NCBI GenBank assembly: GCA_964525605.1
Contig: CAZGKT010000012.1
Coordinates: 7,771 to 71,770 of the forward strand
Length of the DNA stretch: 64,000 bases
Direction of reading: 5' to 3'
Origin: an uncultured bacterium
GTDB lineage: Bacteria > Oederibacteriota > Muellerivitia > Muellerivitales > Muellerivitaceae
The notes beneath the pieces are model-generated. The model was not told the origin of the DNA, did no database searches, and saw only the letters and a program-made list of their open reading frames with translations. A program made the position numbers and the translations under genes. Shown piece by piece: positions 13,013 through 47,949 of the stretch; positions within the stretch are counted from its first letter, which is position 1; the number at the start of each line of letters is the position of its first letter.

Positions 13013-13029
13013 TTGCTTAAATTAATAAC

Positions 13030-15116: not shown

Positions 15117-15132
15117 ACTAAAACCTTTTAGT
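15117..15132. promoter_or_regulatory. 16-bp palindrome ACTAAAACCTTTTAGT, candidate LacI-family operator
   Basis: Inverted repeat (7/8 per half) 56 nt upstream of the GH130 start, in the LacI/GH130 divergent intergenic region next to a TATATT -10-like element. Half-site ACTAAAAC recurs at ~17669 upstream of GH36. Confidence 0.3.
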
Positions 15133-15187
15133 TAATCTTAGAGTCGAAAGCCTTTTAAGGCCCGACCATCCAACCCGGAGGATTTCC

Positions 15188-16114: not shown

Positions 16115-16316
16115 AAAATTCGATTGATTTACCGCAGAGACGCGGAGAACAACGTTTCACCGACTTATGGGCCCCTCTCTAAAAATTGCCTTTTTGGTTT
16201 TGTCGGCTCCAATAAACAAGGTTTTCTTTGTGTCTTGATGCCTTGGGGTAACCCATTATTAGGTTTCCTTATTTCTTTCGATTTTCTCCGCGTCTCCGCG
16301 GTTAAATTTTCTTCGT

Positions 16317-17612: not shown

Positions 17613-17734
17613 GAATAACCTCCGTTGATGGCCGATTATATCAAAGGGATATTTATTACCAATAAAAGACTAAAACGATTTAATCTTTTCAGGTTATTCT
17701 ACGGTTCGATTACCTCTATCCTATCGGGATAACC

Positions 17735-30956: not shown

Positions 30957-33900
30957 ATGAAACACGGCTTATTTCTTGCTCTCGTTCATAGGGTGAAACC
31001 TCCCCAGATCATCCGGAAACTCGCCAACCTTCGCCGCCACTTCCCCTTCCGCTTTCCCGCCTCCTTCCTCGTTTCCCGGCCCACGGAGGCTCCCATCCGC
31101 TCCGAGCTTTTCAGCACCGAACGGTTCGACCAGCACGCCCGCTCGCTGGCGGCGGCGCAAACCCTCACCGACGACCCCAAAGCCGGAGCCCAGCTCTTTC
31201 CCCGGCTCCGCGAAAACGAAAATATCCTCGGGGAGGCCTTCCGCTACCTCACCGGCGAGGTCCAGAAAAAGAAACCCATCAACCCCGCCGGCGAGTGGCT
31301 TTTGGATTCCTACTACGTGGTGGAGGAACAGCTCCGCGACATCAAGCGGTTTCTGCCCCACGACTTCTACAACGAGCTCCCGAAACTTTCCGATGGTTTC
31401 TTGAAGGGCTACCCCCGTGTCTACGGCCTGGCCTGGGCTTACGTGGCCCATACGGACAGCCGATTCGACCCCGAATCCCTCATTCATTTCGTGCGTTCTT
31501 ACCAGCAGGTGGAGCCCCTGACCATCGGGGAACTCTGGGCCCTGGCCATCACGCTTCGGGTCGTGATGGTCGACAACCTGCGCCGCATCGCCGTATACCT
31601 CGTCACCTCCCAGGAGGCGCGCCAGGACGCGGACGCCTTCGTGGACGAGCTGTTAGGGCTCATCGAGGAATCCTCGCTTTCCAGCCGCCCCACGGCCGCC
31701 AAACTCCAGCGCCAATCCGTCCATCCGGCCTACCTGGTCCAGCTCATCCAGCGCCTGCGCTACCAGGACCCCCGGGGAACGCCCGCGGTGGACTGGCTGA
31801 ACGAAAAACTTGCCTTCGAAAAAACCACCGCCGAGGAAATGGTCACCTCCGTCCACAGCCTCCAGGCCGCCAACAACTCCACGGTGCGAAACATCATCAC
31901 CAGCTTCCGCAACATGACGACCTTCGACTGGCAGGATTTTTTCGAGTCCGTCAGCCTGGTCCAGGAGATCCTTGCCCGGCACCCCCTTTATTCCCAAATG
32001 GATTTCAAGACCCGCAACTCCTACCGCACCGCCGTTGAGGAACTGGCCAAGGGATCGGGTAAAAGCGAATTAGAAATCGCGCAGCTAGCCCTCCAAAGGG
32101 CGGCCGAAGGCGCGGACCACCAGGGTTTTTCAGCCCGGATGGGCGATCCCGGCTATTCCCTCTTCGACGAGGGCCGCCGGGCCTTTGAGAAGAAAATCGG
32201 ATTCCAGGTCCCGTTGAAAAAACGTCTCCGCCGTTTTTGCACCGACTACCCGGCCCTCACCTACATCGGCAACATTCTCTTCATGGCCACGGTCATCCTC
32301 TGGATCGCGGCGCTGATGAACCCCCACCTGCCCCAGGCCGAAAGGTTTCTTCTCTTGTTTTTGGGCCTCTTCCCCGCCGGGGACCTGGCCGTCGGCTGGG
32401 TCAACCATTTCGTCACCGGCATGGTGCCGCCCCGCCATCTCGCGCGCCTGGAGTTCTTGGCGGGCCCCACCCCGGAGTTCCGGACCTTCGTGGTGGTTCC
32501 CACCCTGCTGGAAAAGGAATCGAACATTCCCGAACAGTTGGAAAAACTGGAAGTCCATTACCTTTCCAACGCCGACGGGGAAGTCTATTACGCCCTGCTG
32601 ACGGACTTTCCCGATTCTTCCGTGGAAATTTCGCCGGAGGATGAAAAAAAACTCAACCTCGCCGTCCAGCTAACCGCCGAGCTGAACCAACGCCACGGAC
32701 CCGCAGCCGGTGGAGCTTCCCGTTTTTTCCTCTGCCACCGCAAAAGGCTTTGGAACCCGCTGGAAGGAAAGTGGATGGGCTGGGAACGAAAGAGGGGGAA
32801 GCTTCACGAATTCAATAGGCTTTTGCGGGGAGCCCAGGATACGAGCTTCCTGCGTCCCGATGGCTCCGTTCTCACTGTCCCTTCCGGGGTCCGTTACGTC
32901 ATCACCCTGGATGCCGACACCAAGCTTTCCCCCGGCGTGGTCAACCACCTGGTGGGCATCCTGGCCCATCCGCTCAACCAGGCAAGGCTGGACCCCGTCC
33001 GCCAAAAGGTCGTGGAAGGCTACGGCATCCTCCAGCCCCGGGTCACGGCTTTCCTTCCAGCCCAGGACGAAAAATCCATCTTCCAAAAACTCTTTTCAGG
33101 CGATTGCTGCATCGACCCCTACGCCTCGGCCGTTTCGGATGTGTACCAGGACCTCTTCGGCGAGGGCAGTTTCACCGGCAAGGGCATCTACGACGTGGAC
33201 GCGGTGGAACAATCCCTGAAAGGGCGGATCAGCGAAAACCGCCTCCTGAGCCACGACCTCTTCGAGGGCTGTTTCGCCCGTTGTGGCTACGCCAGCGACC
33301 TGGAATTCTTCGAGGAATTCCCCTCCCACGCCGAAACCTCCACCCTGCGCAACCACCGCTGGATCAGGGGCGATTGGCAGCTCTTGCCCTGGATCTTCGG
33401 CCGGGAAGGCAACTCGCTCTCCACCCTTTCCCGTTGGAAAATGGCCGACAACCTGCGCCGAAGCCTCTCCCCCATCGGCACCGTCTGCCTTCTCATCGGG
33501 GCCTTCTGCCTGCCTCAGGTCTACCAGCCCGGCTGGGTAGGCTTGGCCTTGTTAGGGATAGCCCTTCCTTCTTATATACCCTTCTTCAAGGACCTGGTCC
33601 TGTGGCGCCGCCCCCTCCATTGGAGGGACCATTTGGGCGAAATTACACGGGATTTCGTCCTCGGGAGCGGTCAGTTCCTCGTCAATCTGGTTCTGGTGGC
33701 CCACCGTGCCTGGATGCACCTTGACGCCATCCTCCGCACCCTCTGGCGTCTGTTCGTTAGCCACCGCAACCTCCTTGAATGGGTCACCGCCGCCCAGGCC
33801 AACTCTAACTCTGCCCTTAGCCTCTCTCATTTCCTTCGAAGGATGAAGGGTTCGATCTTCATCGCGTGTTTCGCGGCGGCCTTAACGGCCCTGTTCAACC

Positions 33901-36900
33901 CGGCCTCCCTGCCCCTCTGCCTTCCTTTCGTCCTTCTCTGGCTTTGCGCGCCCTGGTTCGCCCAGGCCATCAGTACCCCCGAACCCAAGCGGGAAAGCCT
34001 ACCCTTGACCGCCGATGAAACCAGTGAACTGCGGCTCCATGCCCGGCGCGTCTGGGCTTTCTTCAGCCACTTCGCCGTGAAGGAGGATCATTTCCTCCCG
34101 CCCGATAATTTCCAGGAAGACCCCCTCCCCGTCGTGGCGCACCGGGGTTCCCCGACCAATTTCGGCCTCTACCTTCTCTCCGTCGTCACCGCCCATGATT
34201 TCGGCTGGATCGGCCTCACCGAAATGACCCGAAAACTGGAAGCGGCCCTGAAAAGCCTCAAAGACATGCAGCGATTCCGGGGCCATTTTTATAACTGGAT
34301 CGACACCCAAACCCTTCTGCCCCTGGAACCCCGTTACATCTCATCGGTGGACAGCGGAAACCTGGCCGGCCATCTCTTGACCCTTTCCCAATCCTGCAGG
34401 GATCTGGCCCACCAGCCGCTCTTTCCCGATTCCATCATTGAGGGAATCCAGGACACGGTGTCCCTCCTTAAAAAATCGGCGCAGGCCCTTCCCCTTCACG
34501 CTTTCTCCTCCGCCACCCCCTTGAGCCAGCTTCAAAAGGAAATCGCCAACTTCGACAGCCAGCTTATTCGGGAGGAACATTCCCGCACCCATTCCGAATG
34601 GGCCTCCTACTGGACCCAGCTTTCCCTCCAGGCCGAAACCCTCAAGGATGCCGCCCATGCCTTCTCCGCCGGCCAGCGCGGGGAGGAAATATTCGAAATG
34701 ACGGCTTGGGCAGACCGCGTCGCCGACGATGTCCAAAGCCATACCCAGGATTTCCAACACTTCTTCCCCTGGGCCCTGGGCCGTTCGGCCCTGGATCATT
34801 CAAACCTTCCTACACTAGAAGCCGATTCTCCGGTGATCCGCGAATTCCAATCATCGCTCGGTAAACTTCTCTCCTCCGGCATGACCCCCGCCGAAGTACC
34901 AGGCCTTTGCGAACAGGCACTCGCTTCCATTGAGGCGAAACGCCAGGTCCGCGACAGCCCTCCCCTTTCCGAGTCCGAGGAACTTTATTTCGACCAGGTG
35001 GGCGCGGCATTAACCCTCGCCGCCCAAAATGGCCGGGAGATTTTGCGAAGGTTGGAGGAGGTAGCTACCGATTCCCGGACGATCTTCAATGAGATGGATT
35101 TCAGCTTTTTGCTGAATCCCCAGAAGAAGCTTTTCTCCATCGGCTATCGGATTGCCGATAGCCGTTCGGCTGACGGCCATTCGACCGATGGACAGTTGGA
35201 AGAGGGCTGTTACGACCTTTTGGCCTCCGAAGCCCGCCTCACCAGCTATGTGGCCATCATCAAAAAAGACGTTCCCGTTTCCCATTGGTTCAGGTTGGGC
35301 CGGGGGCTGGTGGCGGATGAGGGCAAGGCGATGCTGATGAGCTGGGCCGGGTCTATGTTCGAGTACCTCATGCCTTCCCTCGTCATGACCACGCCCGGCG
35401 GAAGCCTTTTGGACCAGACCTGTCGGCGGGTGGTGGAACGGCAGATGGATTACGGGAATTTACGGGGTTCGCCCTGGGGCGTATCGGAAGCGGGATATAA
35501 CGCCCGGGACCTGGACCTGAATTACCAGTATTCCACCTTCGGTGTGCCCGGCCTGGGGTTGAAGCGGGGTTTGGCTAAGGACCTCGTCATCGCGCCCTAT
35601 GCCACGGCTCTCGCCGCCATGTTGGAACCCCGAAAGGCCCTTTTTAATTTCCAGAAATTGGAACAACTGGGCGCCCGGGGCTTGTACGGGTTTTACGAAT
35701 CGCTGGATTACACCCCGACGAGGCTTCGGGAAAACGAGAAATTCGCCCTAGTGAAGTCCTATATGGCCCACCACCAGGGCATGTCGCTCATTGCCTTTTC
35801 CAACGTGGTTAATTCCGGCCTCATGCGCCGCCGCTTCCACATGGACCCCTTGGTCCAGGCGGGCGAGCTTTTGTTGCAAGAAAAGACCCCCAGGAATCTG
35901 GGGGCGGCGCGCGACCAGAAGGAAGAGGTGGAAATCCAGGTCATCCAGGTGCCGATCCCCTCCATCCTTCGCGATATCCGCTCGCTCCACCACGCCGTCC
36001 CTAGTTCCCACCTGCTCTCCAACGGCCGTTACGCCGTCATGATCACGGCCGCCGGATCGGGCTATAGCCGCTGGAAAAACCGCGCCGTCACCCGCTGGCG
36101 GGAAGACGTCACCCGCGACCCCTACGGCAGTTTCCTTTACCTGAGGGATCTCAAGTCGGGTGGGGTCTGGTCGGCGGCCTACCAGCCGGTCTTGACCGAA
36201 CCCCTGCAGTACCACGTGCTGTTTTCGGAAGACCGGGCCAAGATCTCGCGCGTGGACCATGGGATCTCCACCGACCTGGAAATTCTCGTTTCGGCGGAAG
36301 ACGACGCCGAGCTCCGCCGCCTCACCCTCACCAACCCCGGGGGCGTCGAAAGGGAAATCGAGGTCACTTCTTATTCGGAAGTGGTGCTGACCGACCCCGC
36401 CGCCGATTTGGCCCATCCGGCCTTTTCCAACCTCTTCATTGAGACCCGTTTCATCCCGGGTCTCGCCGCCCTCACGGCCAGGCGGCGCCCCCGCTCTTCC
36501 GGCGAGGAACCGGTCTTCATGGCCCAGGTGCTTTCCGTGGGAAGCGAAACCTTCGGGGAAATCGAGTACGAAACCGACCGGGCGAAATTCATCGGCCGGG
36601 GCCGCACACCCCGCACCGCCTCCTCGGTCTTGGACGGCCTGCCCCTTTCCCTTTCCACCGGCGCGGTGCTGGACCCCATCCTGTCTTTAAGGGTCAAGGT
36701 GCGCTTAGCTCCCGGCACCTCCGCCCAGGTTTGTTTCACCACCCTGGTGACGGGCTCCGAAACCGAAATGCTTTCAATGGCCGAAAAATACCATAATTCC
36801 TCCGCCTTCGAGCGTTCCTCCGCCCTCGTCTGGACCCAATCCACCGCCAAGCTTCATCACTTGGGGATCGAACTGGAAGAAGCCCAGCTTTTCCAGAAAC

Positions 36901-39863
36901 TCGCAAACCGAATCCTTTTTTCCGACCCCCTCATGCGCCCCACGAGCGAGATCTTGAAAAAGAACCGCATGAACGTGACGGGCCTCTGGTCCCGCGGCAT
37001 CTCGGGCGACCTGCCCATTCTTTTGGTCCGGGTGGACGACCTGGAAGACCAGGCCCTGATCCGCCAGCTTTTGCGCGCCCACGAATACTGGCGCATGAAA
37101 CGGCTATCGATGGATATCGTGCTGCTGAACGAGAAGGGGCCTTCTTACGTGCAAGATTTACAGACAGCCCTGGAAGGCATGGTGCGGGGCAGTGAAGCGA
37201 CATCCCTCGGCAACCCCGACCTGCCTCCCGGGCGCATTTTCGTCTTGCGCGACGACCTGCTGGACGTGCGGGAAAAGAACCTTTTGCTGGCCGTAGCCCG
37301 GGCCATCCTCAACAGCCGCCAGGGCACCCTCGCCGAGCAGGTGATGCGGGTACGAAAATTCGACAGTTTCAAGTACGTTCCCGCGAAGAAAATGGAAGAG
37401 ACGGAAAAATTCCGCCTCGCGGAAAGGGTCGAGCCCCCGGTTTCGCTTTTTCCCCTGGACTTCTTCAACGGCATCGGCGGCTTCACCCCCGATGGGCGGG
37501 AATACGCCATCGTGCTGGAAAAGGGCCAACGCACCCCCGCCCCCTGGATCAACGTGATCTCCAATGGCGAATTCGGGTTTCAGGTTTCCGAATCGGGCGC
37601 GGGCTACACCTGGGCCTTGAACAGCCGGGAAAACCAGATTTCCCCCTGGTCCAACGACCCCGTGATAGACCCTCCCGGCGAGGCCTTTTATATCCAAGAC
37701 TCGGAGGATCTCTGGTCCCCCACCGCCTCCCCCATCAGGCTGGAAGATGCCACCTATACCGCCCGGCACGGAGCGGGTTACAGCGTTTTTGGCAACGAAT
37801 CCAACGGTATCCGAAGCACCCTCACCCAGTTCGTGGACGCCAAAGAACCGGTCAAGATTTCCCGGTTAGTCCTGCAAAACCGATCCCACCGCTCGAGGGA
37901 GCTTTCCATCACCGGTTACGTGGAATGGGTGCTCGGTTTTAACCGCACCCAAACCTCGCATTCTCTCGTGACCGAAATGGACGCCGAAACCGGCGCGCTT
38001 TTCGCCATGAACCCGCTCAACCCAGTTTACGGAAGCCGGGTTTCATTTTTCGACCTCAAGGGCACCCAGACCGCCTTCACCTCTGACCGGTCCGAATTTA
38101 TCGGAAGAAACGGAACACTGGAACGCCCCGCCGGGCTTTTGCGGAAGGAACCCTTAAGCGGCACCACCGGAGCCGGGTTTGATCCCTGCGGGGTTTTGCA
38201 GGCCCCCCTCACCCTGGCTCCGGGCGAGAAAAAGGAACTGGTGTTTCTTTTAGGGCAGGCCGAAAGCCAGGACCAGGCCCGCCGCTTGGTAAAAACCTTC
38301 AGGCAGAGGGGCGTGGAGGAGAGCCTACAGGCCGTTAACCAATTCTGGGATAACTTTTTGGGCAAGATCCAGGTGCAAACCCCCGACCCCGCGATGGACC
38401 TCATGCTCAACCGCTGGCTTCAAACCCAAACCCTGGCCTGCCGGTTTTGGGCCCGCTCGGCCTTTTACCAGGCCGGAGGCGCCTATGGCTTTAGGGACCA
38501 ACTTCAGGATGTGATGGCCATCGTGACGACCGACCCCACCCTGGCCCGGTCGCATATCCTGGTGGCCGCCGGCCGGCAGTTCCCCGAAGGCGATGTCCAG
38601 CATTGGTGGCACCCCTTGTCCGGGCGGGGGGTGAGGTCCCGCGTTTCGGATGACCGCCTCTGGCTTCCCTATGTGGTGCTCCATTACCTGAAGGTGACGG
38701 AGGATCAGGCCCTGCTGGAAGAACTGGTTCCCTTCCTTCAAGCCCCGCTTCTTCGCCCCGACCAGGAAGATTCCTATTTCGAACCCACGGTTTCCCGCGA
38801 ACCTGCCCTGGACCTTTACGAACATTGCGCGAGAGCGGTCGATATCAGCCTTCAAACCGGTGTCCACGGCCTGCCCCTGATGGGAAGTGGGGATTGGAAT
38901 GACGGCATGAACCGAGTCGGCCATGAGGGAAAGGGTGAAAGTGTTTGGCTGGCCTGGTTTCTCCATGAAATCCTGACAGAAATGGCCCCAGTCGCCCAGT
39001 CGAAGGGCGATGAAAAGCGGGCGAAAACTTGGGCCGAACACGCTGACAAGCTCAAACAGGCCCTGGAAACGAACGCCTGGGACGGGACCTGGTACCGCCG
39101 GGCCTTTTTCGACGACGGTTCCCCCCTGGGGTCCAGGGAAAACACCGAATGCCAGATCGATTCCATCGCCCAGAGCTGGGCGGTATTATCCGGCGCCGCG
39201 GACCCGGCCCGAGCGCTCCAGGCCATGAAATCCGTGGAAGAGCGCCTCATCCTCAAGGACGATGACCTGGTTTTGATCTTCACCCCGCCCTTCGACCAAA
39301 CACCGAAAGACCCCGGCTATATCAAGGGTTATCTGCCCGGCGTGAGAGAAAATGGGGGCCAATACACCCACGCCGCCGTCTGGTGTCTCTTGGCCTACGC
39401 GAAGATGGGAATGGGCAAGCAGGCCTTCGAGTTGTTTTCGATGTTGAACCCTATCAACCACGCCCTGACCCGAACCCATGTGGCGACCTACAAAACCGAA
39501 CCCTATGTGATGGTGGCGGATATTTACGGCAAAGCCCCCCACGTGGGCCGGGGCGGCTGGACCTGGTACACCGGTTCGGCCGGGTGGATGTATAGGGCCG
39601 GAGTCGAATTTATCTTGGGAATACAGCAGAGAGGCAAAAAACTACATTTCGATCCATGCATACCGAAGGAATGGTCTGGATTTAAGGTTACTTATCAGAA
39701 TCTAAGTAGTGTTTATGACATTCAATTCGAAAACCCTAATCATGTTTCCAAAGGGGTTCAACGTATTGAATGTGATGGAGTTGTTGTTCAGACGAAGGAT
39801 GCGGCGATCGACTTGAAGGATGATCGGAAGACCCATTTCGTGAAAGTTATTTTAGGCCCGTAA
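30957..39863 (+). CDS. ndvB: Cyclic beta-1,2-glucan synthase (GT84 glycosyltransferase + GH94 phosphorylase-like domain), 2968 aa
   Basis: Multi-TM N-region. GT84 core with YVITLDADTKL (DxD). NHRWIRGDWQLLPWI. C-terminal GH94 blocks GFRDQLQD, WTWYTGSAGWMYRAG. Overall size and order as NdvB/ChvB/Cgs. Last ~85 codons (from ~39605) are visibly AT-richer than the rest. Confidence 0.9.
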   Translation: MKHGLFLALVHRVKPPQIIRKLANLRRHFPFRFPASFLVSRPTEAPIRSELFSTERFDQHARSLAAAQTLTDDPKAGAQLFPRLRENENILGEAFRYLTGEVQKKKPINPAGEWLLDSYYVVEEQLRDIKRFLPHDFYNELPKLSDGFLKGYPRVYGLAWAYVAHTDSRFDPESLIHFVRSYQQVEPLTIGELWALAITLRVVMVDNLRRIAVYLVTSQEARQDADAFVDELLGLIEESSLSSRPTAAKLQRQSVHPAYLVQLIQRLRYQDPRGTPAVDWLNEKLAFEKTTAEEMVTSVHSLQAANNSTVRNIITSFRNMTTFDWQDFFESVSLVQEILARHPLYSQMDFKTRNSYRTAVEELAKGSGKSELEIAQLALQRAAEGADHQGFSARMGDPGYSLFDEGRRAFEKKIGFQVPLKKRLRRFCTDYPALTYIGNILFMATVILWIAALMNPHLPQAERFLLLFLGLFPAGDLAVGWVNHFVTGMVPPRHLARLEFLAGPTPEFRTFVVVPTLLEKESNIPEQLEKLEVHYLSNADGEVYYALLTDFPDSSVEISPEDEKKLNLAVQLTAELNQRHGPAAGGASRFFLCHRKRLWNPLEGKWMGWERKRGKLHEFNRLLRGAQDTSFLRPDGSVLTVPSGVRYVITLDADTKLSPGVVNHLVGILAHPLNQARLDPVRQKVVEGYGILQPRVTAFLPAQDEKSIFQKLFSGDCCIDPYASAVSDVYQDLFGEGSFTGKGIYDVDAVEQSLKGRISENRLLSHDLFEGCFARCGYASDLEFFEEFPSHAETSTLRNHRWIRGDWQLLPWIFGREGNSLSTLSRWKMADNLRRSLSPIGTVCLLIGAFCLPQVYQPGWVGLALLGIALPSYIPFFKDLVLWRRPLHWRDHLGEITRDFVLGSGQFLVNLVLVAHRAWMHLDAILRTLWRLFVSHRNLLEWVTAAQANSNSALSLSHFLRRMKGSIFIACFAAALTALFNPASLPLCLPFVLLWLCAPWFAQAISTPEPKRESLPLTADETSELRLHARRVWAFFSHFAVKEDHFLPPDNFQEDPLPVVAHRGSPTNFGLYLLSVVTAHDFGWIGLTEMTRKLEAALKSLKDMQRFRGHFYNWIDTQTLLPLEPRYISSVDSGNLAGHLLTLSQSCRDLAHQPLFPDSIIEGIQDTVSLLKKSAQALPLHAFSSATPLSQLQKEIANFDSQLIREEHSRTHSEWASYWTQLSLQAETLKDAAHAFSAGQRGEEIFEMTAWADRVADDVQSHTQDFQHFFPWALGRSALDHSNLPTLEADSPVIREFQSSLGKLLSSGMTPAEVPGLCEQALASIEAKRQVRDSPPLSESEELYFDQVGAALTLAAQNGREILRRLEEVATDSRTIFNEMDFSFLLNPQKKLFSIGYRIADSRSADGHSTDGQLEEGCYDLLASEARLTSYVAIIKKDVPVSHWFRLGRGLVADEGKAMLMSWAGSMFEYLMPSLVMTTPGGSLLDQTCRRVVERQMDYGNLRGSPWGVSEAGYNARDLDLNYQYSTFGVPGLGLKRGLAKDLVIAPYATALAAMLEPRKALFNFQKLEQLGARGLYGFYESLDYTPTRLRENEKFALVKSYMAHHQGMSLIAFSNVVNSGLMRRRFHMDPLVQAGELLLQEKTPRNLGAARDQKEEVEIQVIQVPIPSILRDIRSLHHAVPSSHLLSNGRYAVMITAAGSGYSRWKNRAVTRWREDVTRDPYGSFLYLRDLKSGGVWSAAYQPVLTEPLQYHVLFSEDRAKISRVDHGISTDLEILVSAEDDAELRRLTLTNPGGVEREIEVTSYSEVVLTDPAADLAHPAFSNLFIETRFIPGLAALTARRRPRSSGEEPVFMAQVLSVGSETFGEIEYETDRAKFIGRGRTPRTASSVLDGLPLSLSTGAVLDPILSLRVKVRLAPGTSAQVCFTTLVTGSETEMLSMAEKYHNSSAFERSSALVWTQSTAKLHHLGIELEEAQLFQKLANRILFSDPLMRPTSEILKKNRMNVTGLWSRGISGDLPILLVRVDDLEDQALIRQLLRAHEYWRMKRLSMDIVLLNEKGPSYVQDLQTALEGMVRGSEATSLGNPDLPPGRIFVLRDDLLDVREKNLLLAVARAILNSRQGTLAEQVMRVRKFDSFKYVPAKKMEETEKFRLAERVEPPVSLFPLDFFNGIGGFTPDGREYAIVLEKGQRTPAPWINVISNGEFGFQVSESGAGYTWALNSRENQISPWSNDPVIDPPGEAFYIQDSEDLWSPTASPIRLEDATYTARHGAGYSVFGNESNGIRSTLTQFVDAKEPVKISRLVLQNRSHRSRELSITGYVEWVLGFNRTQTSHSLVTEMDAETGALFAMNPLNPVYGSRVSFFDLKGTQTAFTSDRSEFIGRNGTLERPAGLLRKEPLSGTTGAGFDPCGVLQAPLTLAPGEKKELVFLLGQAESQDQARRLVKTFRQRGVEESLQAVNQFWDNFLGKIQVQTPDPAMDLMLNRWLQTQTLACRFWARSAFYQAGGAYGFRDQLQDVMAIVTTDPTLARSHILVAAGRQFPEGDVQHWWHPLSGRGVRSRVSDDRLWLPYVVLHYLKVTEDQALLEELVPFLQAPLLRPDQEDSYFEPTVSREPALDLYEHCARAVDISLQTGVHGLPLMGSGDWNDGMNRVGHEGKGESVWLAWFLHEILTEMAPVAQSKGDEKRAKTWAEHADKLKQALETNAWDGTWYRRAFFDDGSPLGSRENTECQIDSIAQSWAVLSGAADPARALQAMKSVEERLILKDDDLVLIFTPPFDQTPKDPGYIKGYLPGVRENGGQYTHAAVWCLLAYAKMGMGKQAFELFSMLNPINHALTRTHVATYKTEPYVMVADIYGKAPHVGRGGWTWYTGSAGWMYRAGVEFILGIQQRGKKLHFDPCIPKEWSGFKVTYQNLSSVYDIQFENPNHVSKGVQRIECDGVVVQTKDAAIDLKDDRKTHFVKVILGP

Positions 39864-41716: not shown

Positions 41717-41984
41717 GGGAGTAGGGTTGATACCCGATGACCAACAGGTTCGACTAAATCGAACATAGGTCGATGTCAGCCAGTTTTATCGTTGAACTTG
41801 GGCAGATTTCCCCTTGAAAAATGAATTTATATAACCGCATGGGTAAACCTGTCGTAGTGTCCGGGGAACCGAGGCATGACCTGGAGCCCGGCCTCTTTTT
41901 GAAACCAGTGGTATTATTACAGTAATTCCCAATTACGCCGTTAGGTGAATGGGTTCGATCCTATATATGACTGGAGAATATGAC

Positions 41985-43304
41985 ATGAAAAAATCTTTCA
42001 GCTTCTTGGGCCTGGCTTTAGGAGCCCTAACCCTATCCCTGGTCTGCGGATGCAGTAACCACCTGACCACCGCAACCGTCACCAACCCATCCATTGCTCC
42101 CGTCAACATCGCCCCCAACGCCACACTTTATACGGCCGAAGAAGCGACGAACCAGACAGGGGCATCCCTCTATGGTTCCTGCGAAAGCCTCACTAGTTCG
42201 GGCAATATCTTCTTCTCTCCCTTCAGTATCACGACCTGCTTGGCCATGGCTCAGGAAGGCGCGGTCGGCAACACCCAGATTCAGATGCAAAATTTCTTGG
42301 GGCTCAACCCCACGACCTCAACCCGGCTCTCGAGTATGCAAACCCTGATCAATCAGATTAATGCCCCCGGCAAGTCCTACACCCTCGACACAGCCAATAA
42401 TATGTGGCTTCAGGTTGGTTTTCCCTTCCTTCCGGCTTATCTCAACACGGTTCAAACCTACTATGACGCGGGCGTCACGAACGTGGATTTCGTCAACCAG
42501 CCCGCCCAGGCCTTGCAGACGATCAACGGCGCGGTCTCGCAGGAAACCGACGGGTACATCCCGACCCTGTTTTCCGGCCTTCCCCCCAAAACCAAACTGG
42601 TTCTGACCAACGCCATTTATTTTAAGGGCGACTGGCAATTCCAGTTCCCCGTGTCGAATACGGCTCCCCAGACCTTCAATCTCACGACTACCACTTCCGA
42701 ACCGGTCAGCATGATGCACATGACCTTCAACGCCAACCTTGGCACCTTCAACGGGGCGGCCACCGTTTTGTCCATCCCCTACAGCAATTACCAGGCTTCG
42801 ATGTACGTTTTCCTGCCGCCACTCGGCAGCATGGCGGCCCTGGAAAGCCAAATGACCGGAGCTAACATCAACACCTGGCTGACGGCTAACGCTTCGACGA
42901 TGAACTCAACCACCGCCTATGGCCAGGTAATGCTGACCCTGCCCAGGTTCAGCTTCAAAACCAATTACGACCTGACCAGCGCTTTGACTGCCGACATGCC
43001 CCTGGCCTTTACCATCCCCGGGCCCACCACGCTGATAGGGGCCGATTTCTGGAATATCGACGGAACGAACAACTTGTACATCACCGAGGTGGTCCATCAA
43101 GCCTATGTGGACGTTTCGGAAACGGGCACGACCGCCGCCGCCGCGACCGGGGTCGCTTTGGGGTGCCCCAATTGCATGGTCGTATCGATGCCGATGATCA
43201 ATTCCTTCACCGCGGACCATCCCTTCATTTTCATGATCGTGGACAACGCCTCCAATACGGTGTTGTTCATGGGCCGAGTGAACGATCCGCTTTCCAGTAA
43301 TTAA
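41985..43304 (+). CDS. Serpin (serine protease inhibitor) lipoprotein
   Basis: Lipobox LSLVCGC. Serpin N-block NIFFSPFSITTCLAM. Hinge ETGTTAAAATG. C-terminal FTADHPFIFMIVDNASNTVLFMGRVNDP. GGAG RBS 10 nt upstream of ATG 41985. Confidence 0.85.
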   Translation: MKKSFSFLGLALGALTLSLVCGCSNHLTTATVTNPSIAPVNIAPNATLYTAEEATNQTGASLYGSCESLTSSGNIFFSPFSITTCLAMAQEGAVGNTQIQMQNFLGLNPTTSTRLSSMQTLINQINAPGKSYTLDTANNMWLQVGFPFLPAYLNTVQTYYDAGVTNVDFVNQPAQALQTINGAVSQETDGYIPTLFSGLPPKTKLVLTNAIYFKGDWQFQFPVSNTAPQTFNLTTTTSEPVSMMHMTFNANLGTFNGAATVLSIPYSNYQASMYVFLPPLGSMAALESQMTGANINTWLTANASTMNSTTAYGQVMLTLPRFSFKTNYDLTSALTADMPLAFTIPGPTTLIGADFWNIDGTNNLYITEVVHQAYVDVSETGTTAAAATGVALGCPNCMVVSMPMINSFTADHPFIFMIVDNASNTVLFMGRVNDPLSSN

Positions 43305-43344
43305 CGGTTGTAGGAAGTTATAAAAGAATAGGTTCAGGTGGGAT

Positions 43345-43362
43345 GGGGTCAGGGTTGACCCC
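43345..43362 (+). terminator. Possible terminator hairpin after serpin
   Basis: GGGGTCA-gggt-TGACCCC 7-bp stem 40 nt after the serpin stop; followed by AT-rich but not a clean T-run. Confidence 0.2.
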
Positions 43363-44064
43363 GTTCAAGGGCATTATTTCGGTTACTCGGCAAACCAACC
43401 CGACTTCATTTAACACAATCCCAAATTATTCTTCTGAATGATTTAGAAGACTAGGCGCGATCGAAATCAAATCTAAATAACACAAGGCCAAAACAACTCC
43501 CGATATGTTCTTTAATACGGGATTAGGATTTCACCACAAATACCTTGATCGGCCTCGATCGCGCAGGAGTCCTATTACCCTAATCCACAATGAATAATGA
43601 TTTGGAGGAGTCTTTTATTCCAAAAAAAATGGACCATCCAAATAAATAAACCGGCTGACAGTTTCCCCTTGATCGGATTGGGGAATCGGGAAGGTTCCGG
43701 CGGGGGCATAGGCTTGGCGAGAGGCGGGTGTCCCTTTTTAAGAAGTCTTAACGGTTAGAGCCGTAAGAGGAACGAGTGCAAGGTCAGACCTCACCCCACA
43801 CAAAGGCCCGGAAAATTTCGGAAGTAACCCCGCGATATATCAGCGCAATATTAGCATTTTCGAAACCTGCCGACCTTGCGGCGATTCCATGACCAGGTAA
43901 TAGAGCCCGTCCGCTTTTTCGACTAGCCTCGGACAAGCCATGGCTAACAGGACTAAAATCAGCTTCTCCACCCCGCCCGTTGATACCCTTTCCCGATTAA
44001 AAAAAATATAATTGATGGATCTACCGCGCAAGAAATTAAAACCTGATATCGCCAGGAGTAACTT

Positions 44065-44601
44065 ATGCCGAAAAAAATTATCTGTTCCAAATGCGGGGCT
44101 GTACTGCCCCCCTTCGCCACGACGGAAAACCCTAAACGCATCTATAAAATATGTGCCGAGTGCGAGGCCGATTTAACCCGTCAAATCAAGGGTCCGGCAG
44201 TGGAAAAATACCTCGATACGCTGGGTACCCCGGCCCTCGTAGTCAACCGGGATCTGCGCGTGATCGCCTTCAATCAAAATTGTTTACGAGATTTATGCGG
44301 CAATGAACCCAAACCCACCGGCCTGCTCGCCGGGGAATTTTTGGAATGCCATAACGCTTCCCTGCCCGAACGATGCGGGGCCACCCCGGCTTGCCTGGAC
44401 TGCGCCATCCGCCGTACCGCGATCGACACCCTGAGGACGAAGGAATCCCAAAAATACGTCCCCGCCCTCATCCCCGGGAAGGACGGAAACCGAATGGTCC
44501 GAAGGGAATTTTTAATTTCCACGGATAAACTGGGAGACATGGTTCAGATCACCATCGAAAAATTGGTTACTGTTCTGTTGCCCCCCGCCTCGGAAAACTG
44601 A
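44065..44601 (+). CDS. Cys-rich small protein: N-terminal zinc-ribbon (CxxC...CxxC) + PAS-like region with second Cys cluster
   Basis: CSKCG...CAEC, then NRDLRVIAFNQNCLRDL (PAS-like), then ECHNASLPERCGATPACLDC. AGGAG 9 nt upstream. Confidence 0.55.
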   Translation: MPKKIICSKCGAVLPPFATTENPKRIYKICAECEADLTRQIKGPAVEKYLDTLGTPALVVNRDLRVIAFNQNCLRDLCGNEPKPTGLLAGEFLECHNASLPERCGATPACLDCAIRRTAIDTLRTKESQKYVPALIPGKDGNRMVRREFLISTDKLGDMVQITIEKLVTVLLPPASEN

Positions 44602-44655: not shown

Positions 44656-47600
44656 CTATTTGCGCTTATGGCCCTTTGGCTTTCGGACCTTATGGGTATG
44701 GACCTTGGGTTTCTTGCCCTGGTGAGGCGGGCGGTCGGATTTCTCCCAGGCGGTGACCACATCCTCGATGCGGACGGTCCGGGCCCATTGTTGAGCCCCT
44801 TCCAATTGCTCGCTCGGGAATCGGCTCCGTAAATCCCGCGCAAAAGTATCCGCTTGATCCTTTGTTTGCCGGTGACAGATGGGTTGGGTCAGGGCGAGCG
44901 TGATGAAACTCAAGGCTTGGCCTTCCTCCCCCTCGGCCTTCAAGAGTCGGGAGATCCCTACCGCCAGGTCGATCAATTGGGGCTTGAGCTTGGCTTCCGT
45001 CGCCATCCGTGCCGCCCTTTTGAAATATTTTTTAGTTTCCGGGTAGGCTTCCAACCGGCACGCGATATCCCCCAAATGGATGCAAGTGGCCGACATCCCC
45101 AGCACATCCCCCGTTTCCTCGAAGAAACCCAGGCTTTTCAGGAAAAAATTTTCGGCTTCCTTCCATCGCTTTGCGAAACCCGATAGGGCACCCAGGTGGT
45201 AAAAATGCCAAGCCTCGCTGGTGGGATTCGATCCCTCCTTCGTCAACAAGTCATGGGACTGCTGGAAAAGGCCCGCCGCTTCCTGATCTTTTCCCTGGGC
45301 GAACCTCAAATTGCCTAAAAGGTCCATGGACCAGGCGATCCCCCGGGAGTCGCCGATATCCTGGTAAATTTTCAATCCATCCTGAAAAAACTGATCGGCC
45401 TCCTCGTACTCCCCCAGGGACCAGCTGACGTATCCCAAGTGATCGCTCGTTGCCGCGACCGCCCGGCGGTCCCCCAGGTCCTGCGAAATGGATTTACTCT
45501 CCAGGTACATTTGGCGGGCGCCGGCGTAATCCCCTACCAAAACGGCCACCCGTCCCAGGTTTCTCATGGCCCAGGCGGTTCCCCGGCGGTCGCCGCTCCG
45601 GGAATAGGCCTCTAAGCTCTTCATGTGATAAGCCCGGGCCTCCGCGAATTGACCCAGGTCGAACAGCGCCTCTCCGGTCAGGATATAGGAGTAGGCCATC
45701 TCCCGCTCGTCCCTGTCCTTTTCGGAATAGACGAGGCTTTTGCGGATAAAGGTAAGGCCCTTCCGCAGATTTCCCATCAAGAGGGTGATGTGGCCCAGGT
45801 GGTTGAGGGTGAGGGTGATGCCGGACCGCTGGCCGTTACGGTAATAAACCTTGAAGCTTTTTTCGTAATAATCCTTGGCCTTTTTAAACTCACCCTGGGT
45901 CTCAGCCACCAGGCCCAAACCGGCCAGGGCGAAACCCGATTGTTTCAGCGCGGAGGCGCCCTGGAACAGTTCCAGGCTTTTCTCAAACAGTTTTCGGGCC
46001 ACCTGGACACGGCCCAAATCGATTTCAAAATCACCCCGGCGGGAAAGCAGCTTGCCCAAAAGAACCGCCTTGGAATCGGTCATGTCGCCGGGGTCCTGGT
46101 ATCTTTCCTGGAGAATGTCCGCAGCCCGCTGAAAGGCCTCCTGGCCTTCCTGGAGCCACCCTTTCGTCTCGTAGAGGGTGAACAGGCTGTCCAGGTAATC
46201 CCCCATGACTTTTTCCTGCCCCCCATCGACCGCCCGGACCCACCCTTCCCGGATGTTTTCCATTTCCTGGAGAAGCCCCTCGAAAACGATCCGCTGGTTG
46301 GGCCCATACAAGTCCCGCTCCCTTTTCTTCAGCAGGTTTCCGAAATAGGCACTATGGTCGGCCATGGCCTGGGTCTTCCGGGCCGGATCGTCGAATAGTT
46401 TTTCCTTGGCGAAATGCTTCAGGAGCTCGTGGATCTCGTAGCGGCCGTCGGGCCGAAGACGAACCAAGGACTTCCCTTCGAGCGCGTTCAGGATGGGCTC
46501 GGTGGCCCCGGCCACGGCGCGAGCGGCCAAGCGGGTAAACCCACCCCGGAAGGTTGAAATGGCCATCAGGGATTTTTTCTGGGTTTCGGAAAGGAGGATC
46601 CAGGAATACTCGAACACCGCCCTCAAACTGCGGTGCCGGGGCGGTAGGTGGGGCATGGCGGTCGCCAAGAAATCTCGGCTACTCTCGATTTTATCCGCGA
46701 TCGGGGCGAGGCCCAGCGAAGAAACCCACGTCGCCGAAAGTTCCAGCCCCAGGGGCATTCCCTCCAAAAGCCGGCAGACGCGAATCAGGGACGGTCCCTC
46801 CTCCGCCTCCAAAGCAAAATCCGGACGCACCCGCCGGGCGCTTTTGAGGAACAATTGGACGGCGGCAAAGGCTTCCAGGGGGCCCTCCTGTCCCTCCTCG
46901 GGGTAGCGGAGACCCCGGACCTCGAATATTTTTTCGATTCCGATACCCAATTTTTCGCGGGACGTCACGATAATTTTCACGCCGGGCGCGGCCCTCAGGA
47001 GGTCTTGGATCAGATCCGCCCCCTCGACGAGGTGCTCGAAGTTGTCCAAAACGATCAAGCATTCTTTCGGCTTCAAATGGTTCAACAGCTGGGTTTTCGG
47101 ATCTTCCGGGCCGAAAAAGAAAAATTTCATGGCGGTGGCGATGGTACTGACGATCAACTGGTCCGATAGAAGCGGCGCCAGGGCCACCCAATAGACCCCA
47201 TCCTTGAACCGTTCCACCAACTCCGCCGCGGTCTGAAAAGCCAGCCGGGTCTTCCCGAAACCGCCCGGCCCCGCCAGGGTCACCTGCCGGACGGGGGAAC
47301 GGGCGAGCATTTCAGTCAATTCGCCGATTTCCTCCCGCCTTCCAAAAAAGGGAGAGATCTGAGGAAAAAAATTCTGGGTATAGTTCTTCAACGATCGAAG
47401 GGGCGGAAATTCCCCATGGGGTAAATCCGGATGCTGGAGGGAAAAGACATTTTCGGGTTCGCTCAGGTCTTTAAGGAAATGGGTTCCCAGATCCTGGAGC
47501 CGGGCGTCGGGAGGCAGAGGGATAAAATGTACCGCGGGAACCGTCAGGAGGATCTGGCCCCCCCAGGCCGTTTCCAGTAGTTTGAGGGCGTGGTTAAAGT

Positions 47601-47949
47601 CCGGGCCCACATAGGTCTGGGCGTACTGGTCGGCCTCTCCCGAATGCAGAACGACGCGGACCTTCCCCTGGCCGAAGGCGTCCCAGGACCGGGCGGGAAA
47701 TTGTTTTTGAATGTCCAGGGCGGCTTGAGCGGCCTCCCCGGGCTCTAAAATGGATAAAACCCCGGCGAGAGTGCGCTGCATCCAATGGGCGCCGTGAGCT
47801 TGGAGCAATTCTTCCAAAAAGAAAAACTGCCCGCCCAAAACATGGTCCGCTTCGGGCGTGCCCCGGCCCTGGAAAACAGCCGGATGGTCGATTTCAATAA
47901 AAAGGAAAATCAATGCGTCGTCGCCTTTGCGTGGCCAATGGCAAAGCAC
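44656..47949 (-). CDS. STAND signalling ATPase: N-terminal class-III cyclase-homology domain (degenerate) + NB-ARC + TPR array
   Basis: VLHSGEA...GPDFNHALKLLETAWGGQILLT (cyclase fold). Walker A GPGGFGKTRLA. Walker B CLIVLDNFEH. More than 10 TPRs in C-terminal 500 aa. Basic tail KKPKVHTHKVRKPKGHKRK. GTG start. Confidence 0.85.
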   Translation of the reverse strand: MLCHWPRKGDDALIFLFIEIDHPAVFQGRGTPEADHVLGGQFFFLEELLQAHGAHWMQRTLAGVLSILEPGEAAQAALDIQKQFPARSWDAFGQGKVRVVLHSGEADQYAQTYVGPDFNHALKLLETAWGGQILLTVPAVHFIPLPPDARLQDLGTHFLKDLSEPENVFSLQHPDLPHGEFPPLRSLKNYTQNFFPQISPFFGRREEIGELTEMLARSPVRQVTLAGPGGFGKTRLAFQTAAELVERFKDGVYWVALAPLLSDQLIVSTIATAMKFFFFGPEDPKTQLLNHLKPKECLIVLDNFEHLVEGADLIQDLLRAAPGVKIIVTSREKLGIGIEKIFEVRGLRYPEEGQEGPLEAFAAVQLFLKSARRVRPDFALEAEEGPSLIRVCRLLEGMPLGLELSATWVSSLGLAPIADKIESSRDFLATAMPHLPPRHRSLRAVFEYSWILLSETQKKSLMAISTFRGGFTRLAARAVAGATEPILNALEGKSLVRLRPDGRYEIHELLKHFAKEKLFDDPARKTQAMADHSAYFGNLLKKRERDLYGPNQRIVFEGLLQEMENIREGWVRAVDGGQEKVMGDYLDSLFTLYETKGWLQEGQEAFQRAADILQERYQDPGDMTDSKAVLLGKLLSRRGDFEIDLGRVQVARKLFEKSLELFQGASALKQSGFALAGLGLVAETQGEFKKAKDYYEKSFKVYYRNGQRSGITLTLNHLGHITLLMGNLRKGLTFIRKSLVYSEKDRDEREMAYSYILTGEALFDLGQFAEARAYHMKSLEAYSRSGDRRGTAWAMRNLGRVAVLVGDYAGARQMYLESKSISQDLGDRRAVAATSDHLGYVSWSLGEYEEADQFFQDGLKIYQDIGDSRGIAWSMDLLGNLRFAQGKDQEAAGLFQQSHDLLTKEGSNPTSEAWHFYHLGALSGFAKRWKEAENFFLKSLGFFEETGDVLGMSATCIHLGDIACRLEAYPETKKYFKRAARMATEAKLKPQLIDLAVGISRLLKAEGEEGQALSFITLALTQPICHRQTKDQADTFARDLRSRFPSEQLEGAQQWARTVRIEDVVTAWEKSDRPPHQGKKPKVHTHKVRKPKGHKRK

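What the first reader, a model, noticed from the sequence alone, without database searches (positions are those of the whole stretch)
41985..43304. Lipoprotein serpin with a Cys-Pro-Asn-Cys / Met-rich reactive-centre loop
Seen in sequence:
- Unambiguous serpin: NIFFSPFSI...; hinge ETGTTAAAATG at nt ~43119; FTADHPFIFMIVD...LFMGRVNDP.
- Exported as a lipoprotein (LSLVCGC).
- The loop between hinge and the conserved FTADHPF reads GVALGCPNCMVVSMPM. This is ~5 residues longer than in alpha-1-antitrypsin. Two Cys flank the position predicted as P1 by hinge counting, and there are three Met.

Serving as an inhibitory serpin is established for this hinge type (small residues P12-P9).

Inference: a redox-sensitive or disulfide-constrained RCL, targeting a chymotrypsin/elastase-like or subtilisin-like protease at the cell surface. 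It lies downstream of an OMP in the glycan cluster. Bacterial serpins are sporadic, and none that I can recall has a CxxC in the RCL.
Basis: partly seen in the sequence, partly recalled or inferred. Interest (0 to 1): 0.5.

Follow-up and report, generated by a model that had tools for sequence, protein, structure and literature searches.

The report
Lipoprotein serpin with Cys-bracketed bait loop
This is a membrane-anchored bacterial protease inhibitor (a serpin) whose bait loop has two conserved cysteines on either side of the expected cut site, which probably lets oxidation or reduction switch it off or on, though nobody has tested this.

Summary
Window 41985-43304(+) encodes a complete serpin (Pfam 330 bits; AF2 pLDDT 87). 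It has a lipoprotein signal peptide (VCG|C23), an inhibitory-type hinge (ETGTTAAAAT) and a C394-P-N-C397 motif. In chloropin, the closest solved relative, P1 was mapped experimentally, and it aligns with Pro395. The canonical scissile bond therefore lies inside the CxxC.

The Cys pair is not a one-off. It is invariant in 12 of about 55 cluster representatives of a small clade of lipoprotein serpins from an unnamed, uncultured lineage. The two inner residues vary freely. The nested relative P0005 lacks both Cys. None of about 229 serpin loops sampled outside the clade has a CxxC.

Met is about 3-fold enriched in CxxC loops, but a strain variant changes two of the three Met. No protease or Dsb gene is linked. 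Tandem paralogs carry different loops.

Best reading (inference, about 0.4): the pair forms a reversible disulfide that cages the scissile bond, making a redox-gated inhibitor. The known analogue is the vicinal RCL disulfide of SerpinB9. The target protease cannot be inferred. I rate this a new variant of a known kind, of moderate interest.

The parts
41973..41976 (+). Shine-Dalgarno-like GGAG, 8 nt upstream of the preferred start codon
   Evidence: Read directly from the sequence. The alternative upstream ATG at 41949 has AGGTG only 1 nt away.
41985..43304 (+). Serpin gene (439 aa plus stop). Gene callers used ATG 41949, giving 451 aa.
   Evidence: ORF list. Pfam PF00079 at 329.7 bits, covering the full model. 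PDB serpin matches. AF2 serpin fold with pLDDT 87. Only one serpin copy in the window.
41985..42053 (+). Lipoprotein signal peptide M1-G22, with lipobox V20-C21-G22 and the lipid-acceptor Cys23 (nt 42051-42053)
   Evidence: The sequence MKKSFSFLGLALGALTLSLVCG|C fits the PROSITE lipobox pattern. Lipobox-like N-termini occur in 54 of 66 clade sequences.
42054..42143 (+). Thr/Pro/Asn-rich flexible tether between the lipid anchor and the serpin body (residues 24-53)
   Evidence: pLDDT is below 50 for residues 21-36. Tether length from the lipid Cys to NIFFSP is 39-154 residues across the clade, with a mode near 46.
42144..43289 (+). Serpin domain (residues 54-435)
   Evidence: Pfam envelope 54-435. 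Foldseek hits to PDB serpins with TM up to 0.92.
43119..43148 (+). RCL hinge, P17-P8: E379-T-G-T-T-A-A-A-A-T388
   Evidence: E379, G381, A384 and T388 are invariant in 67 relatives. The published inhibitory consensus is ExGTEAAAA.
43164..43175 (+). C394-P395-N396-C397: the conserved Cys pair bracketing the canonical scissile bond P395-N396
   Evidence: Codons TGC CCC AAT TGC. C394 and C397 are invariant in 12 CxxC members. The experimentally mapped P1 of chloropin, Arg383, aligns with P395.
43176..43205 (+). P' side of the loop, M398-VVSMPMINS407, with Met at 398, 403 and 405
   Evidence: A shared C-x-x-C-x-[A/V]-V motif and Met enrichment of 8.9% vs 2.7%. M398T and M405I occur in strain variant P0124.
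43206..43226 (+). Strand s1C anchor motif F408-TADHPF414
   Evidence: F408, P413 and F414 are invariant.

Best explanation
The gene encodes an inhibitory-type serpin. It is exported by the Sec pathway, lipidated on Cys23, and held on a membrane of a diderm envelope by a tether of about 30 residues. It belongs to a small family of such lipoprotein serpins in an uncultured lineage. The family has several paralogs, and their bait loops have diversified. (Up to here, confidence is above 0.9.)

In one loop type, to which this protein belongs, two cysteines spaced CxxC straddle the bond a protease must attack. The proposed mechanism is inferred and not shown.

- Outside the cytoplasm the two thiols can close into a 4-residue disulfide ring.
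- Such a ring cannot adopt the extended conformation a protease active site needs.
- If a bond inside the ring were cut, the P and P' sides would still be joined, so the loop could not snap into sheet A and carry the protease to the far pole.
- The oxidised protein is therefore a caged, protease-resistant, non-trapping form.
- Reduction, by anoxic or thiol-rich surroundings or by a partner, opens the ring and arms a normal suicide inhibitor whose P1 lies at C394, P395 or N396.

The neighbouring Met residues may add a second layer of oxidation sensitivity.
For: Serpin identity and inhibitory hinge.

Lipoprotein N-terminus is clade-wide. LolA is encoded near the serpin in two relatives, so the lineage is diderm.

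Position of the scissile bond:
- The P1 of chloropin, mapped by mass spectrometry, is the 17th residue from the hinge Glu. It aligns without gaps to P395.
- The AF2 loop-inserted model ends the inserted strand at G393.
- The RCL length rule allows at most 2 residues shorter, and 1-2 longer costs up to 1e6-fold in complex stability. This limits P1 to G393-C397, which is inside or touching the ring.

The pair behaves as one unit:
- Both Cys are invariant in 12 cluster representatives at 44-71% identity, while the inner residues are hypervariable.
- Both are absent in P0005, which groups with the window clade at bootstrap 100.
- Only 2 of 67 loops have a single Cys.
- A CxxC occurs in 0 of about 229 loops outside the clade.
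- A strain variant keeps CPNC while changing two Met.

Precedent: oxidation of a conserved RCL Cys pair to a disulfide reversibly inactivates SerpinB9 (Mangan 2016, cited in PMC11222584).

Geometry of disulfide rings and the roughly 70 A translocation: established knowledge.
Against: - No structural or biochemical evidence for the disulfide.
- Cys outside the loop show no even-number bias: 16 proteins have one and 18 have two. The envelope of these organisms may therefore not be strongly oxidising, and many relatives come from soils or sediments that may be anoxic.
- No Dsb-like or thioredoxin-like gene is linked.
- The first Cys sits at hinge position 16 in nine members and 15 in three, so the register relative to P1 is not fixed.
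- A cleaved but disulfide-linked loop might still insert slowly in a latency-like way, by pulling out strand s1C.
- The phylogenetic support amounts to few independent events. Deep nodes have bootstrap below 70, and the Met statistics are not corrected for phylogeny.
Confidence: 0.4

Rival explanations
1. Free-thiol specificity loop. The Cys are never bridged in vivo, because the envelope is anoxic or lacks Dsb. They act simply as P2/P2' (or P3/P1', or P1) side chains recognised by a particular target protease, as Cys344 acts as P1 in SERPINB1. Alternatively they act as thiols that engage the catalytic Cys or Zn of a cysteine protease or metalloprotease.
For: SERPINB1 is the second-best PDB match, and its loop ...ATFCM... 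aligns here. Several unrelated serpins in the sample have single or adjacent Cys around P1. Cys parity shows no sign of systematic disulfide formation. The second inner residue is mostly M, N, L, Y or I, which looks like a P1 set, and the first is often P, S or T, which looks like a P2 set. Miropin shows that bacterial lipoprotein serpins can inhibit cysteine proteases.
Against: This does not explain why the two Cys always occur together at a fixed i,i+3 spacing and are absent together in P0005. Ordinary subsite residues in this family are hypervariable, whereas these two are invariant.
Confidence: 0.2
2. Constitutive structural disulfide. The ring is a permanent rigid knob or turn, and the real scissile bond lies just outside it, for example at L392-G393 or G393-C394, or after C397 in the conserved x-A-V segment. 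The ring would shape the loop or protect the canonical position from off-target proteases.
For: Flanking residues are conserved: G at -1 in 9 of 12, A at +5 in 9 of 12, V at +6 in 10 of 12. Ala/Val would suit an elastase-like S1 pocket. The protein is extracytoplasmic.
Against: A P1 at +5 or +6 would be 21-22 residues from the hinge Glu, which is 4-5 too long. Additions of only 1-2 residues already destabilise complexes up to 1e6-fold. In miropin, a cut at P4'-P5' is non-productive. A P1 at L392 is 3 residues short, and deleting more than 2 converts a serpin into a substrate. A P1 Gly is unusual.
Confidence: 0.12
3. Metal-responsive loop. The CxxC, together with nearby Met thioethers, binds a soft metal such as Cu(I). 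Inhibitor activity or stability would then respond to envelope copper.
For: Met is 3.3-fold enriched in CxxC loops compared with sister loops (20/224 vs 24/874, p = 1.5e-4). The window loop has an MPM next to the CxxC. It is established knowledge that a CxxC is sufficient for two-coordinate Cu(I) in Atx1/CopZ-type proteins and that Met-rich motifs bind Cu(I) in the periplasm.
Against: P0004 and P0016 have no Met in the loop. P0124 changes two of three Met. The M-x-C-x-x-C form is present in only 2 of 12 members. There is no HMA fold and no copper-homeostasis gene nearby.
Confidence: 0.08
4. Non-inhibitory or decaying serpin. The odd loop, with Pro at the counted P1, means the protein no longer traps proteases and does something else, such as binding or chaperoning.
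For: P1 = Pro is a poor substrate residue for most serine proteases. No cognate protease gene was found.
Against: The hinge is of the inhibitory type, with small residues at P12-P9 and Thr at P14, and it is conserved. The gene is intact and full-length. AF2 readily inserts P15-P3 into sheet A. The counted P1 varies across orthologous loops (K, S, N, Q, T, P), as expected for a bait under selection.
Confidence: 0.1

Closest known systems
Miropin (Tannerella forsythia serpin)
   Same: A bacterial serpin made as a lipoprotein and displayed on the outer membrane. It has an inhibitory hinge and some flexibility in which RCL bond is used.
   Different: In the text I read, miropin's reactive site is the VKT motif, with no Cys pair reported there. 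Its one disulfide stabilises the native fold. It belongs to a different prokaryotic serpin group, and it was not among the top sequence matches here.
Chloropin (Chlorobium limicola serpin, PDB 8GXV)
   Same: It is the best solved sequence match (E = 7e-54) and aligns without gaps through the hinge and the P side of the RCL. It is secreted and inhibitory, and its P1 was mapped experimentally at hinge position 17.
   Different: P1-P1' is Arg-Ser, with no Cys in the loop. Its loop is 3 residues shorter on the P' side. It has an ordinary signal peptide and is not described as a lipoprotein.
SerpinB9 (PI-9): redox switch by a vicinal disulfide in the RCL
   Same: A conserved Cys pair next to the scissile bond. 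Its oxidation to a disulfide reversibly switches the inhibitor off. This is the only described serpin mechanism that matches the one proposed here.
   Different: The SerpinB9 pair is adjacent (CC). Per Mangan 2016, recalled from memory because the paper was not held, it sits at P1'-P2', or at P1-P1' in rodents. Here the spacing is CxxC across the counted P1-P1' bond. SerpinB9 is an intracellular eukaryotic clade-B serpin oxidised by ROS, whereas this protein is an exported bacterial lipoprotein.
SERPINB1 (leukocyte elastase inhibitor, PDB 4GA7)
   Same: It is the second-best solved match, and its loop ...ATFCM... carries a Cys that aligns at the first Cys of the window's CPNC. That this Cys is the P1 used against elastase is my own knowledge.
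   Different: It has a single Cys and cannot form an intraloop bridge. It is cytosolic.
Disulfide-closed reactive loops of standard-mechanism inhibitors (Bowman-Birk, SFTI-1)
   Same: A disulfide encloses the scissile bond and holds the two halves together after cleavage (own knowledge).
   Different: Those rings have 9 residues, are built to keep the extended canonical conformation, and act by tight reversible binding. A 4-residue CxxC ring cannot be extended, and the scaffold here is a serpin that needs the two halves to separate.

Membership tests
Serpin superfamily (Pfam PF00079) | Full-length match to the family profile above the curated cut-off | tested here: met
   329.7 bits against a cut-off of 27, covering model positions 2-370 of 370.
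Serpin superfamily (Pfam PF00079) | Serpin fold | tested here: met
   AF2 pLDDT 87 and pTM 0.85. Foldseek finds 415 PDB hits at E <= 1e-3, with the top hits all serpins and TM up to 0.92.
Inhibitory serpins | Hinge P17-P9 of the ExGTEAAAA type: Glu at P17, small uncharged residues at P14 and P12-P9, no Pro | tested here: met
   The hinge is E-T-G-T-T-A-A-A-A. It deviates only at P16 (T) and P13 (T). E379, G381 and A384 are invariant in 67 relatives.
Inhibitory serpins | A usable P1 at about 17 residues from the P17 Glu | tested here: inconclusive
   Position 17 is Pro395, flanked by C394 and C397. Which bond is actually used is unknown.
Inhibitory serpins | SDS-stable covalent complex with a protease and the S-to-R transition | not testable with these tools
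   This needs biochemistry. AF2 does place P15-P3 in sheet A, which shows only that insertion is compatible with the sequence.
Bacterial lipoproteins | Signal peptide with a basic n-region, a hydrophobic core and a lipobox [LVI..][ASTVI..][GAS]C within the first ~35 residues | tested here: met
   MKK...LSLVCG|C23 fits the PROSITE-type pattern. The same architecture occurs in 54 of 66 clade sequences.
Bacterial lipoproteins | Lipoprotein sorting machinery in the organism, and actual lipidation | tested here: inconclusive
   LolA is encoded in the loci of two relatives, but it was not seen in this window. Lipidation and the final location (periplasmic face or cell surface) are not testable here.
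Redox-switched serpins (SerpinB9 type) | Conserved Cys pair in the RCL next to the scissile bond | tested here: met
   C394 and C397 are invariant in 12 clusters and bracket the counted P1-P1' bond.
Redox-switched serpins (SerpinB9 type) | The pair is vicinal (adjacent Cys-Cys) | tested here: not met
   The spacing is C-x-x-C in all 12 members. The resemblance is therefore in mechanism, not in family membership.
Redox-switched serpins (SerpinB9 type) | Reversible loss of inhibition on oxidation | not testable with these tools
   This needs inhibition assays with and without reductant.
Thioredoxin-fold CxxC oxidoreductases | CxxC at the N-terminus of a helix in a thioredoxin fold | tested here: not met
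   The only domain is the serpin domain, and the CxxC lies in a disordered loop. CPxC resembles the DsbA and glutaredoxin motifs only as a string of letters.
c-type cytochrome haem-attachment site | CxxCH | tested here: not met
   The residue after the second Cys is M, G, E, Q, T or L, and never His.
HMA-type Cu(I) sites | An M-x-C-x-x-C motif in a ferredoxin-like fold | tested here: not met
   Met is at -2 in only 2 of 12 members, and there is no HMA domain.

The most novel reading that the evidence does not exclude
These are 'caged' serpins. A conserved CxxC disulfide ring encloses the scissile bond, so the exported inhibitor is inert and protease-resistant while oxidised. It becomes a suicide trap only when the envelope turns reducing, or when a partner or metal opens the ring. 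This would be a redox-gated protease inhibitor on a bacterial surface, working through a ring across P1-P1', which has not been described for any serpin.
Probability: 0.3. Interest if true: 0.65.

Novelty: new variant of a known kind. Interest (0 to 1): 0.45.

Why it matters

A conserved Cys pair that physically encloses the bond a protease must attack gives a concrete hypothesis that is cheap to test: extracellular proteolysis in an uncultured soil or sediment lineage may be tuned by redox state.

If true, it would extend the SerpinB9-type redox switch from the eukaryotic cytosol to the bacterial envelope, with a different geometry (a 4-residue ring across P1-P1'). It would also offer a compact design principle for engineering switchable serpins.

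If false, and the Cys are simply free thiols, the clade is still a useful set of natural loop variants on one scaffold, including tandem paralogs. It would then be ordinary biology.

Tried and rejected
1. Organism and context from GTDB genomes. 
2. Source names for close relatives. There were none. GatB from a relative's contig showed only '[bacterium]'-labelled relatives, then a drop to about 57% identity. The lineage remains unnamed.
3. AF2, to see whether the two Cys can bridge. The model came out in the loop-inserted (latent or cleaved-like) state with CPNC at pLDDT below 50, and coordinates are not exposed. This was uninformative for the native loop.
4. Even-number Cys bias as a proxy for an oxidising envelope. 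There was no bias. My first strict lipobox regex also mis-scored many sequences and had to be redone.
5. Guilt by association. Nine loci were inspected. There was no conserved neighbour, no protease and no Dsb or thioredoxin gene. An ECF-sigma plus FlgD_ig pair recurs, but such pairs are common in these contigs, with two in the 12 kb of L091 alone.
6. Widening the CxxC set. A profile of the 12 CxxC members found no new members in either protein database.
7. NCBIfam gave no hit, and Rfam found nothing in the window.
8. The primary SerpinB9 paper (PMC4751400) is not held, so it is cited through a review.
9. Haem-attachment (CxxCH), thioredoxin-like and HMA readings of the motif were considered and rejected (see Membership tests).
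Full report
**What is there.**
- The window has one long ORF at 41949..43304(+).
- The most likely start is ATG 41985. A GGAG lies 8 nt upstream, the N-termini of homologs align to this Met, and it opens a textbook signal peptide.
- The 439-aa product matches the Pfam Serpin model end to end at 329.7 bits.
- It hits 198 distinct PDB serpin sequences.
- It folds in AlphaFold2 as a serpin with mean pLDDT 87 and pTM 0.85.
- No second serpin copy is in the window.
- NCBIfam has no model for it.

**N-terminus.**
- MKKSFSFLGLALGALTLSLVCG|C23 fits the PROSITE-type lipobox rule.
- The same architecture is found in 54 of 66 sequences of the surrounding clade: a basic n-region, a hydrophobic core, [GAS]-Cys at residue 19-26, and then a low-complexity Thr/Pro-rich tether of about 45 residues. 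That covers essentially every sequence with an intact N-terminus except one small branch.
- LolA is encoded close to the serpin in two relatives, so the lineage is diderm with lipoprotein sorting.
- I cannot tell whether the protein faces the periplasm or the cell surface.

**The loop and where P1 is.**
- The hinge is E379-TGTTAAAAT. The published inhibitory consensus is ExGTEAAAA.
- After it comes GVALG-C394-P395-N396-C397-MVVSMPMINS, then the invariant s1C motif F408-TADHPF.
- Counting from the P17 Glu, P1 is Pro395, so the Cys are at P2 and P2'.
- This count can be calibrated. The closest solved relative is chloropin (8GXV), whose P1 Arg383 was mapped by mass spectrometry. It is the 17th residue from the hinge Glu, and in the gap-free HMMER alignment it sits opposite Pro395.
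- AF2 modelled the relaxed, loop-inserted state. The best structural matches are latent or cleaved serpins. The inserted strand runs from 381 to 393, which leaves CPNC at the distal turn where P1 belongs.
[quoted passage not shown] One or two extra residues cost up to a million-fold in complex stability, and deleting more than two turns a serpin into a substrate (citing Zhou et al.).
- Any productive scissile bond must therefore lie between about G393 and C397, which is inside or touching the CxxC.
- The loop is 7 residues longer than in alpha-1-antitrypsin, 5 longer than SERPINB1 and 3 longer than chloropin. All of the excess is on the P' side, and the length is normal for this clade.

**Is the Cys pair meaningful?**
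- A search of 5.8 billion clustered proteins found about 55 cluster representatives at 43-71% identity. They form one clade of lipoprotein serpins.
- In the exhaustive 50%-identity library the whole clade collapses into a single representative among 53,828 serpin representatives. A profile search found no further members.
- Twelve representatives carry a CxxC at the same place. The first Cys is at hinge position 16 in nine of them and at 15 in three.
- Across these twelve (44-71% identity to the window protein) both Cys are invariant. The two inner residues are P/S/Q/T/K/N and M/N/Y/L/D/I.
- The loops also share G at -1 and x-A-V after the second Cys, so this is one loop type rather than a set of convergent motifs.
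- On a bootstrapped NJ tree of the serpin body, with the loop masked, the CxxC members fall in three places:
  - The window protein with P0002-4 (bootstrap 97). P0005 joins them at bootstrap 100, and P0005 has neither Cys. P0014 and P0016 are next at bootstrap 67.
  - P0015/27/32/43, at bootstrap 81.
  - P0051, alone.
- Deep nodes are weak. I cannot distinguish one origin with losses from a few gains or from loop exchange between paralogs. Either way, the two Cys come and go together.
- Of the 67 aligned loops, 12 have CxxC, 2 have a single Cys and 53 have none.
- Outside the clade, none of about 229 parsed serpin loops has a CxxC. Some have single or adjacent Cys near P1.
- Chance expectation is about 9e-4 per loop.
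- The near-identical strain variant P0124 keeps CPNC but has M398T and M405I.
- Met is nevertheless 3.3-fold enriched in CxxC loops compared with sister loops: 20/224 against 24/874, Fisher p = 1.5e-4, not corrected for phylogeny.

**Context.**
- Upstream in the window are a 2968-aa GH94-type protein, a weak methyltransferase-like ORF and a Pro/Thr-rich exported protein with no family match.
- Downstream are a 760-bp gap, a small Cys-rich ORF and a STAND NTPase on the other strand.
- A strain contig shares the upstream genes but not the downstream one.
- Eight other loci of clade members show no conserved neighbour, no protease and no thiol-oxidoreductase.
- Two of those loci show tandem serpin paralogs with different loops, one CxxC and one not. 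The family looks like a set of baits diversified for different targets.
- The rest of the window encodes glycan-active enzymes and signalling proteins, and no protease.
- The host lineage is uncultured. GatB from a relative's 442-kb contig has relatives at 70-92% identity labelled only '[bacterium]', followed by a drop to about 57%.

**Mechanism.** Shown so far:
- It is an intact, inhibitory-type, lipoprotein serpin.
- A conserved Cys pair encloses the bond that hinge counting, and experimental mapping in a homolog, designate as the scissile bond.

Inferred:
- Two Cys at i,i+3 in an exported protein most plausibly act together, through a disulfide.
- The Cα atoms of a bridged pair lie about 4.4-6.8 Å apart. 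Residues i and i+3 of an extended chain are about 10 Å apart. An oxidised ring therefore cannot present P2-P2' in the canonical extended conformation (established structural knowledge).
- If a bond inside the ring were cut, P and P' would remain linked.
- Only 10 residues separate C397 from the anchored strand s1C. That is too short to follow P1 over the roughly 70 Å translocation, unless s1C is pulled out as in the slow latency transition.
- The oxidised form should therefore be a caged, non-trapping state, and the reduced form an ordinary suicide inhibitor.
- The one described serpin with this logic is SerpinB9, which is inactivated when a conserved RCL Cys pair is oxidised to a vicinal disulfide. 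The primary paper was not available.

I put about 0.4 on this reading. The main rivals are:
- Free thiols acting as plain specificity residues, as Cys does at P1 in SERPINB1 (0.2).
- A permanent structural ring with P1 outside it (0.12). This is disfavoured by the length rule.
- A Cu(I)-type metal site formed with the Met residues (0.08).
- Loss of inhibitory function (0.1).

The absence of an even-number bias among the other Cys of the clade, and the unknown oxygen regime of the hosts, are the main reasons for caution. The target protease class cannot be inferred from anything I found.

**Comparison and novelty.**
- It is a member of the serpin superfamily and, by sequence criteria, of the inhibitory serpins and of the bacterial lipoproteins.
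- It resembles miropin in being a lipoprotein serpin.
- It resembles chloropin in sequence.
- It resembles SerpinB9 only in the proposed switch. It is not a member of that group, because the pair is CxxC and not vicinal, and the scaffold and cellular compartment differ.
- It is not a thioredoxin-like, haem-c or HMA site.
- I rate it a new variant of a known kind: a conserved loop subtype, apparently undescribed, in a small and poorly sampled clade.
- Interest is moderate (0.45). The motif is real, conserved and sits in a mechanistically awkward place for a serpin, and the hypothesis is cheap to test. But there is a precedent for the concept, and nothing here demonstrates the disulfide or any inhibition.

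Noticed in passing
window 30957-39863 (+): A giant 2968-aa protein with two GH94 supersandwich stretches, a GH94 catalytic domain and a glucoamylase-like domain, resembling a cyclic beta-1,2-glucan synthase or phosphorylase. The same gene precedes the serpin in the strain contig L001.
   Followed up: partly
window 44656-47949 (-); L001 11910-15554 (-): A 1097-aa STAND NTPase (NB-ARC/AAA_16) with TPR repeats sits just downstream of the serpin. In the near-identical strain contig that position holds a different 1214-aa gene, so this spot varies between strains.
   Followed up: no
window 44065-44601 (+): A 178-aa Cys-rich ORF. Its N-terminus has two CxxC pairs (CSKC...CAEC) and looks like a zinc ribbon. 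It has no Pfam family above threshold.
   Followed up: partly
window 43305-44064: A 760-bp stretch with no ORF of 60 aa or more on the + strand, lying between the serpin stop and the next + strand gene. It has no Rfam match and no convincing terminator after the serpin.
   Followed up: partly
L090 3376-6070; L091 3563-6387: Tandem serpin paralogs with different reactive-centre loops. In L090, P0017 (no Cys) is followed by P0003 (CxxC). In L091, P0027 (CxxC) is followed by a serpin split into two ORFs, which may be a frameshift or a pseudogene.
   Followed up: partly
L090 1726-3247; L091 1985-3423 and 10482-11713; L083 6510-7870; L088 4368-5740: A gene pair of an ECF sigma factor (190 aa) and a FlgD_ig-domain protein recurs next to clade serpins. 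It is co-directional and immediately upstream in L090 and L091. This could be a regulatory link, or it could simply reflect how common such pairs are in this lineage. None is next to the window's serpin.
   Followed up: partly
L083 3288-4589 (GatB): The housekeeping protein GatB of a close relative has relatives at 70-92% identity that are labelled only '[bacterium]'. Identity then drops to about 57% against Firmicutes and Spirochaetia. The lineage is uncultured and has no named close relatives.
   Followed up: yes
window 2365-19924: A cluster of glycan-utilisation genes: two GH5 cellulase-like proteins, a SASA-type esterase, a 1431-aa protein with mannanase-type binding domains, a LacI regulator, a solute-binding protein and a GH36 alpha-galactosidase.
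   Followed up: no
window 52762-53910 (+) and 62782-63822 (-): Two class III adenylate/guanylate cyclase domain proteins, one with a PAS sensor. A cyclase also sits next to the serpin P0032 in L087.
   Followed up: no
P0162, P0229, P0238, P0242 (reactive-centre loops): Several unrelated long or multi-domain serpins in the sample have adjacent Cys-Cys near the counted P1 (for example LCCITF, VPCCAS, VMCCEI). These resemble the vicinal pair described for SerpinB9.
   Followed up: no
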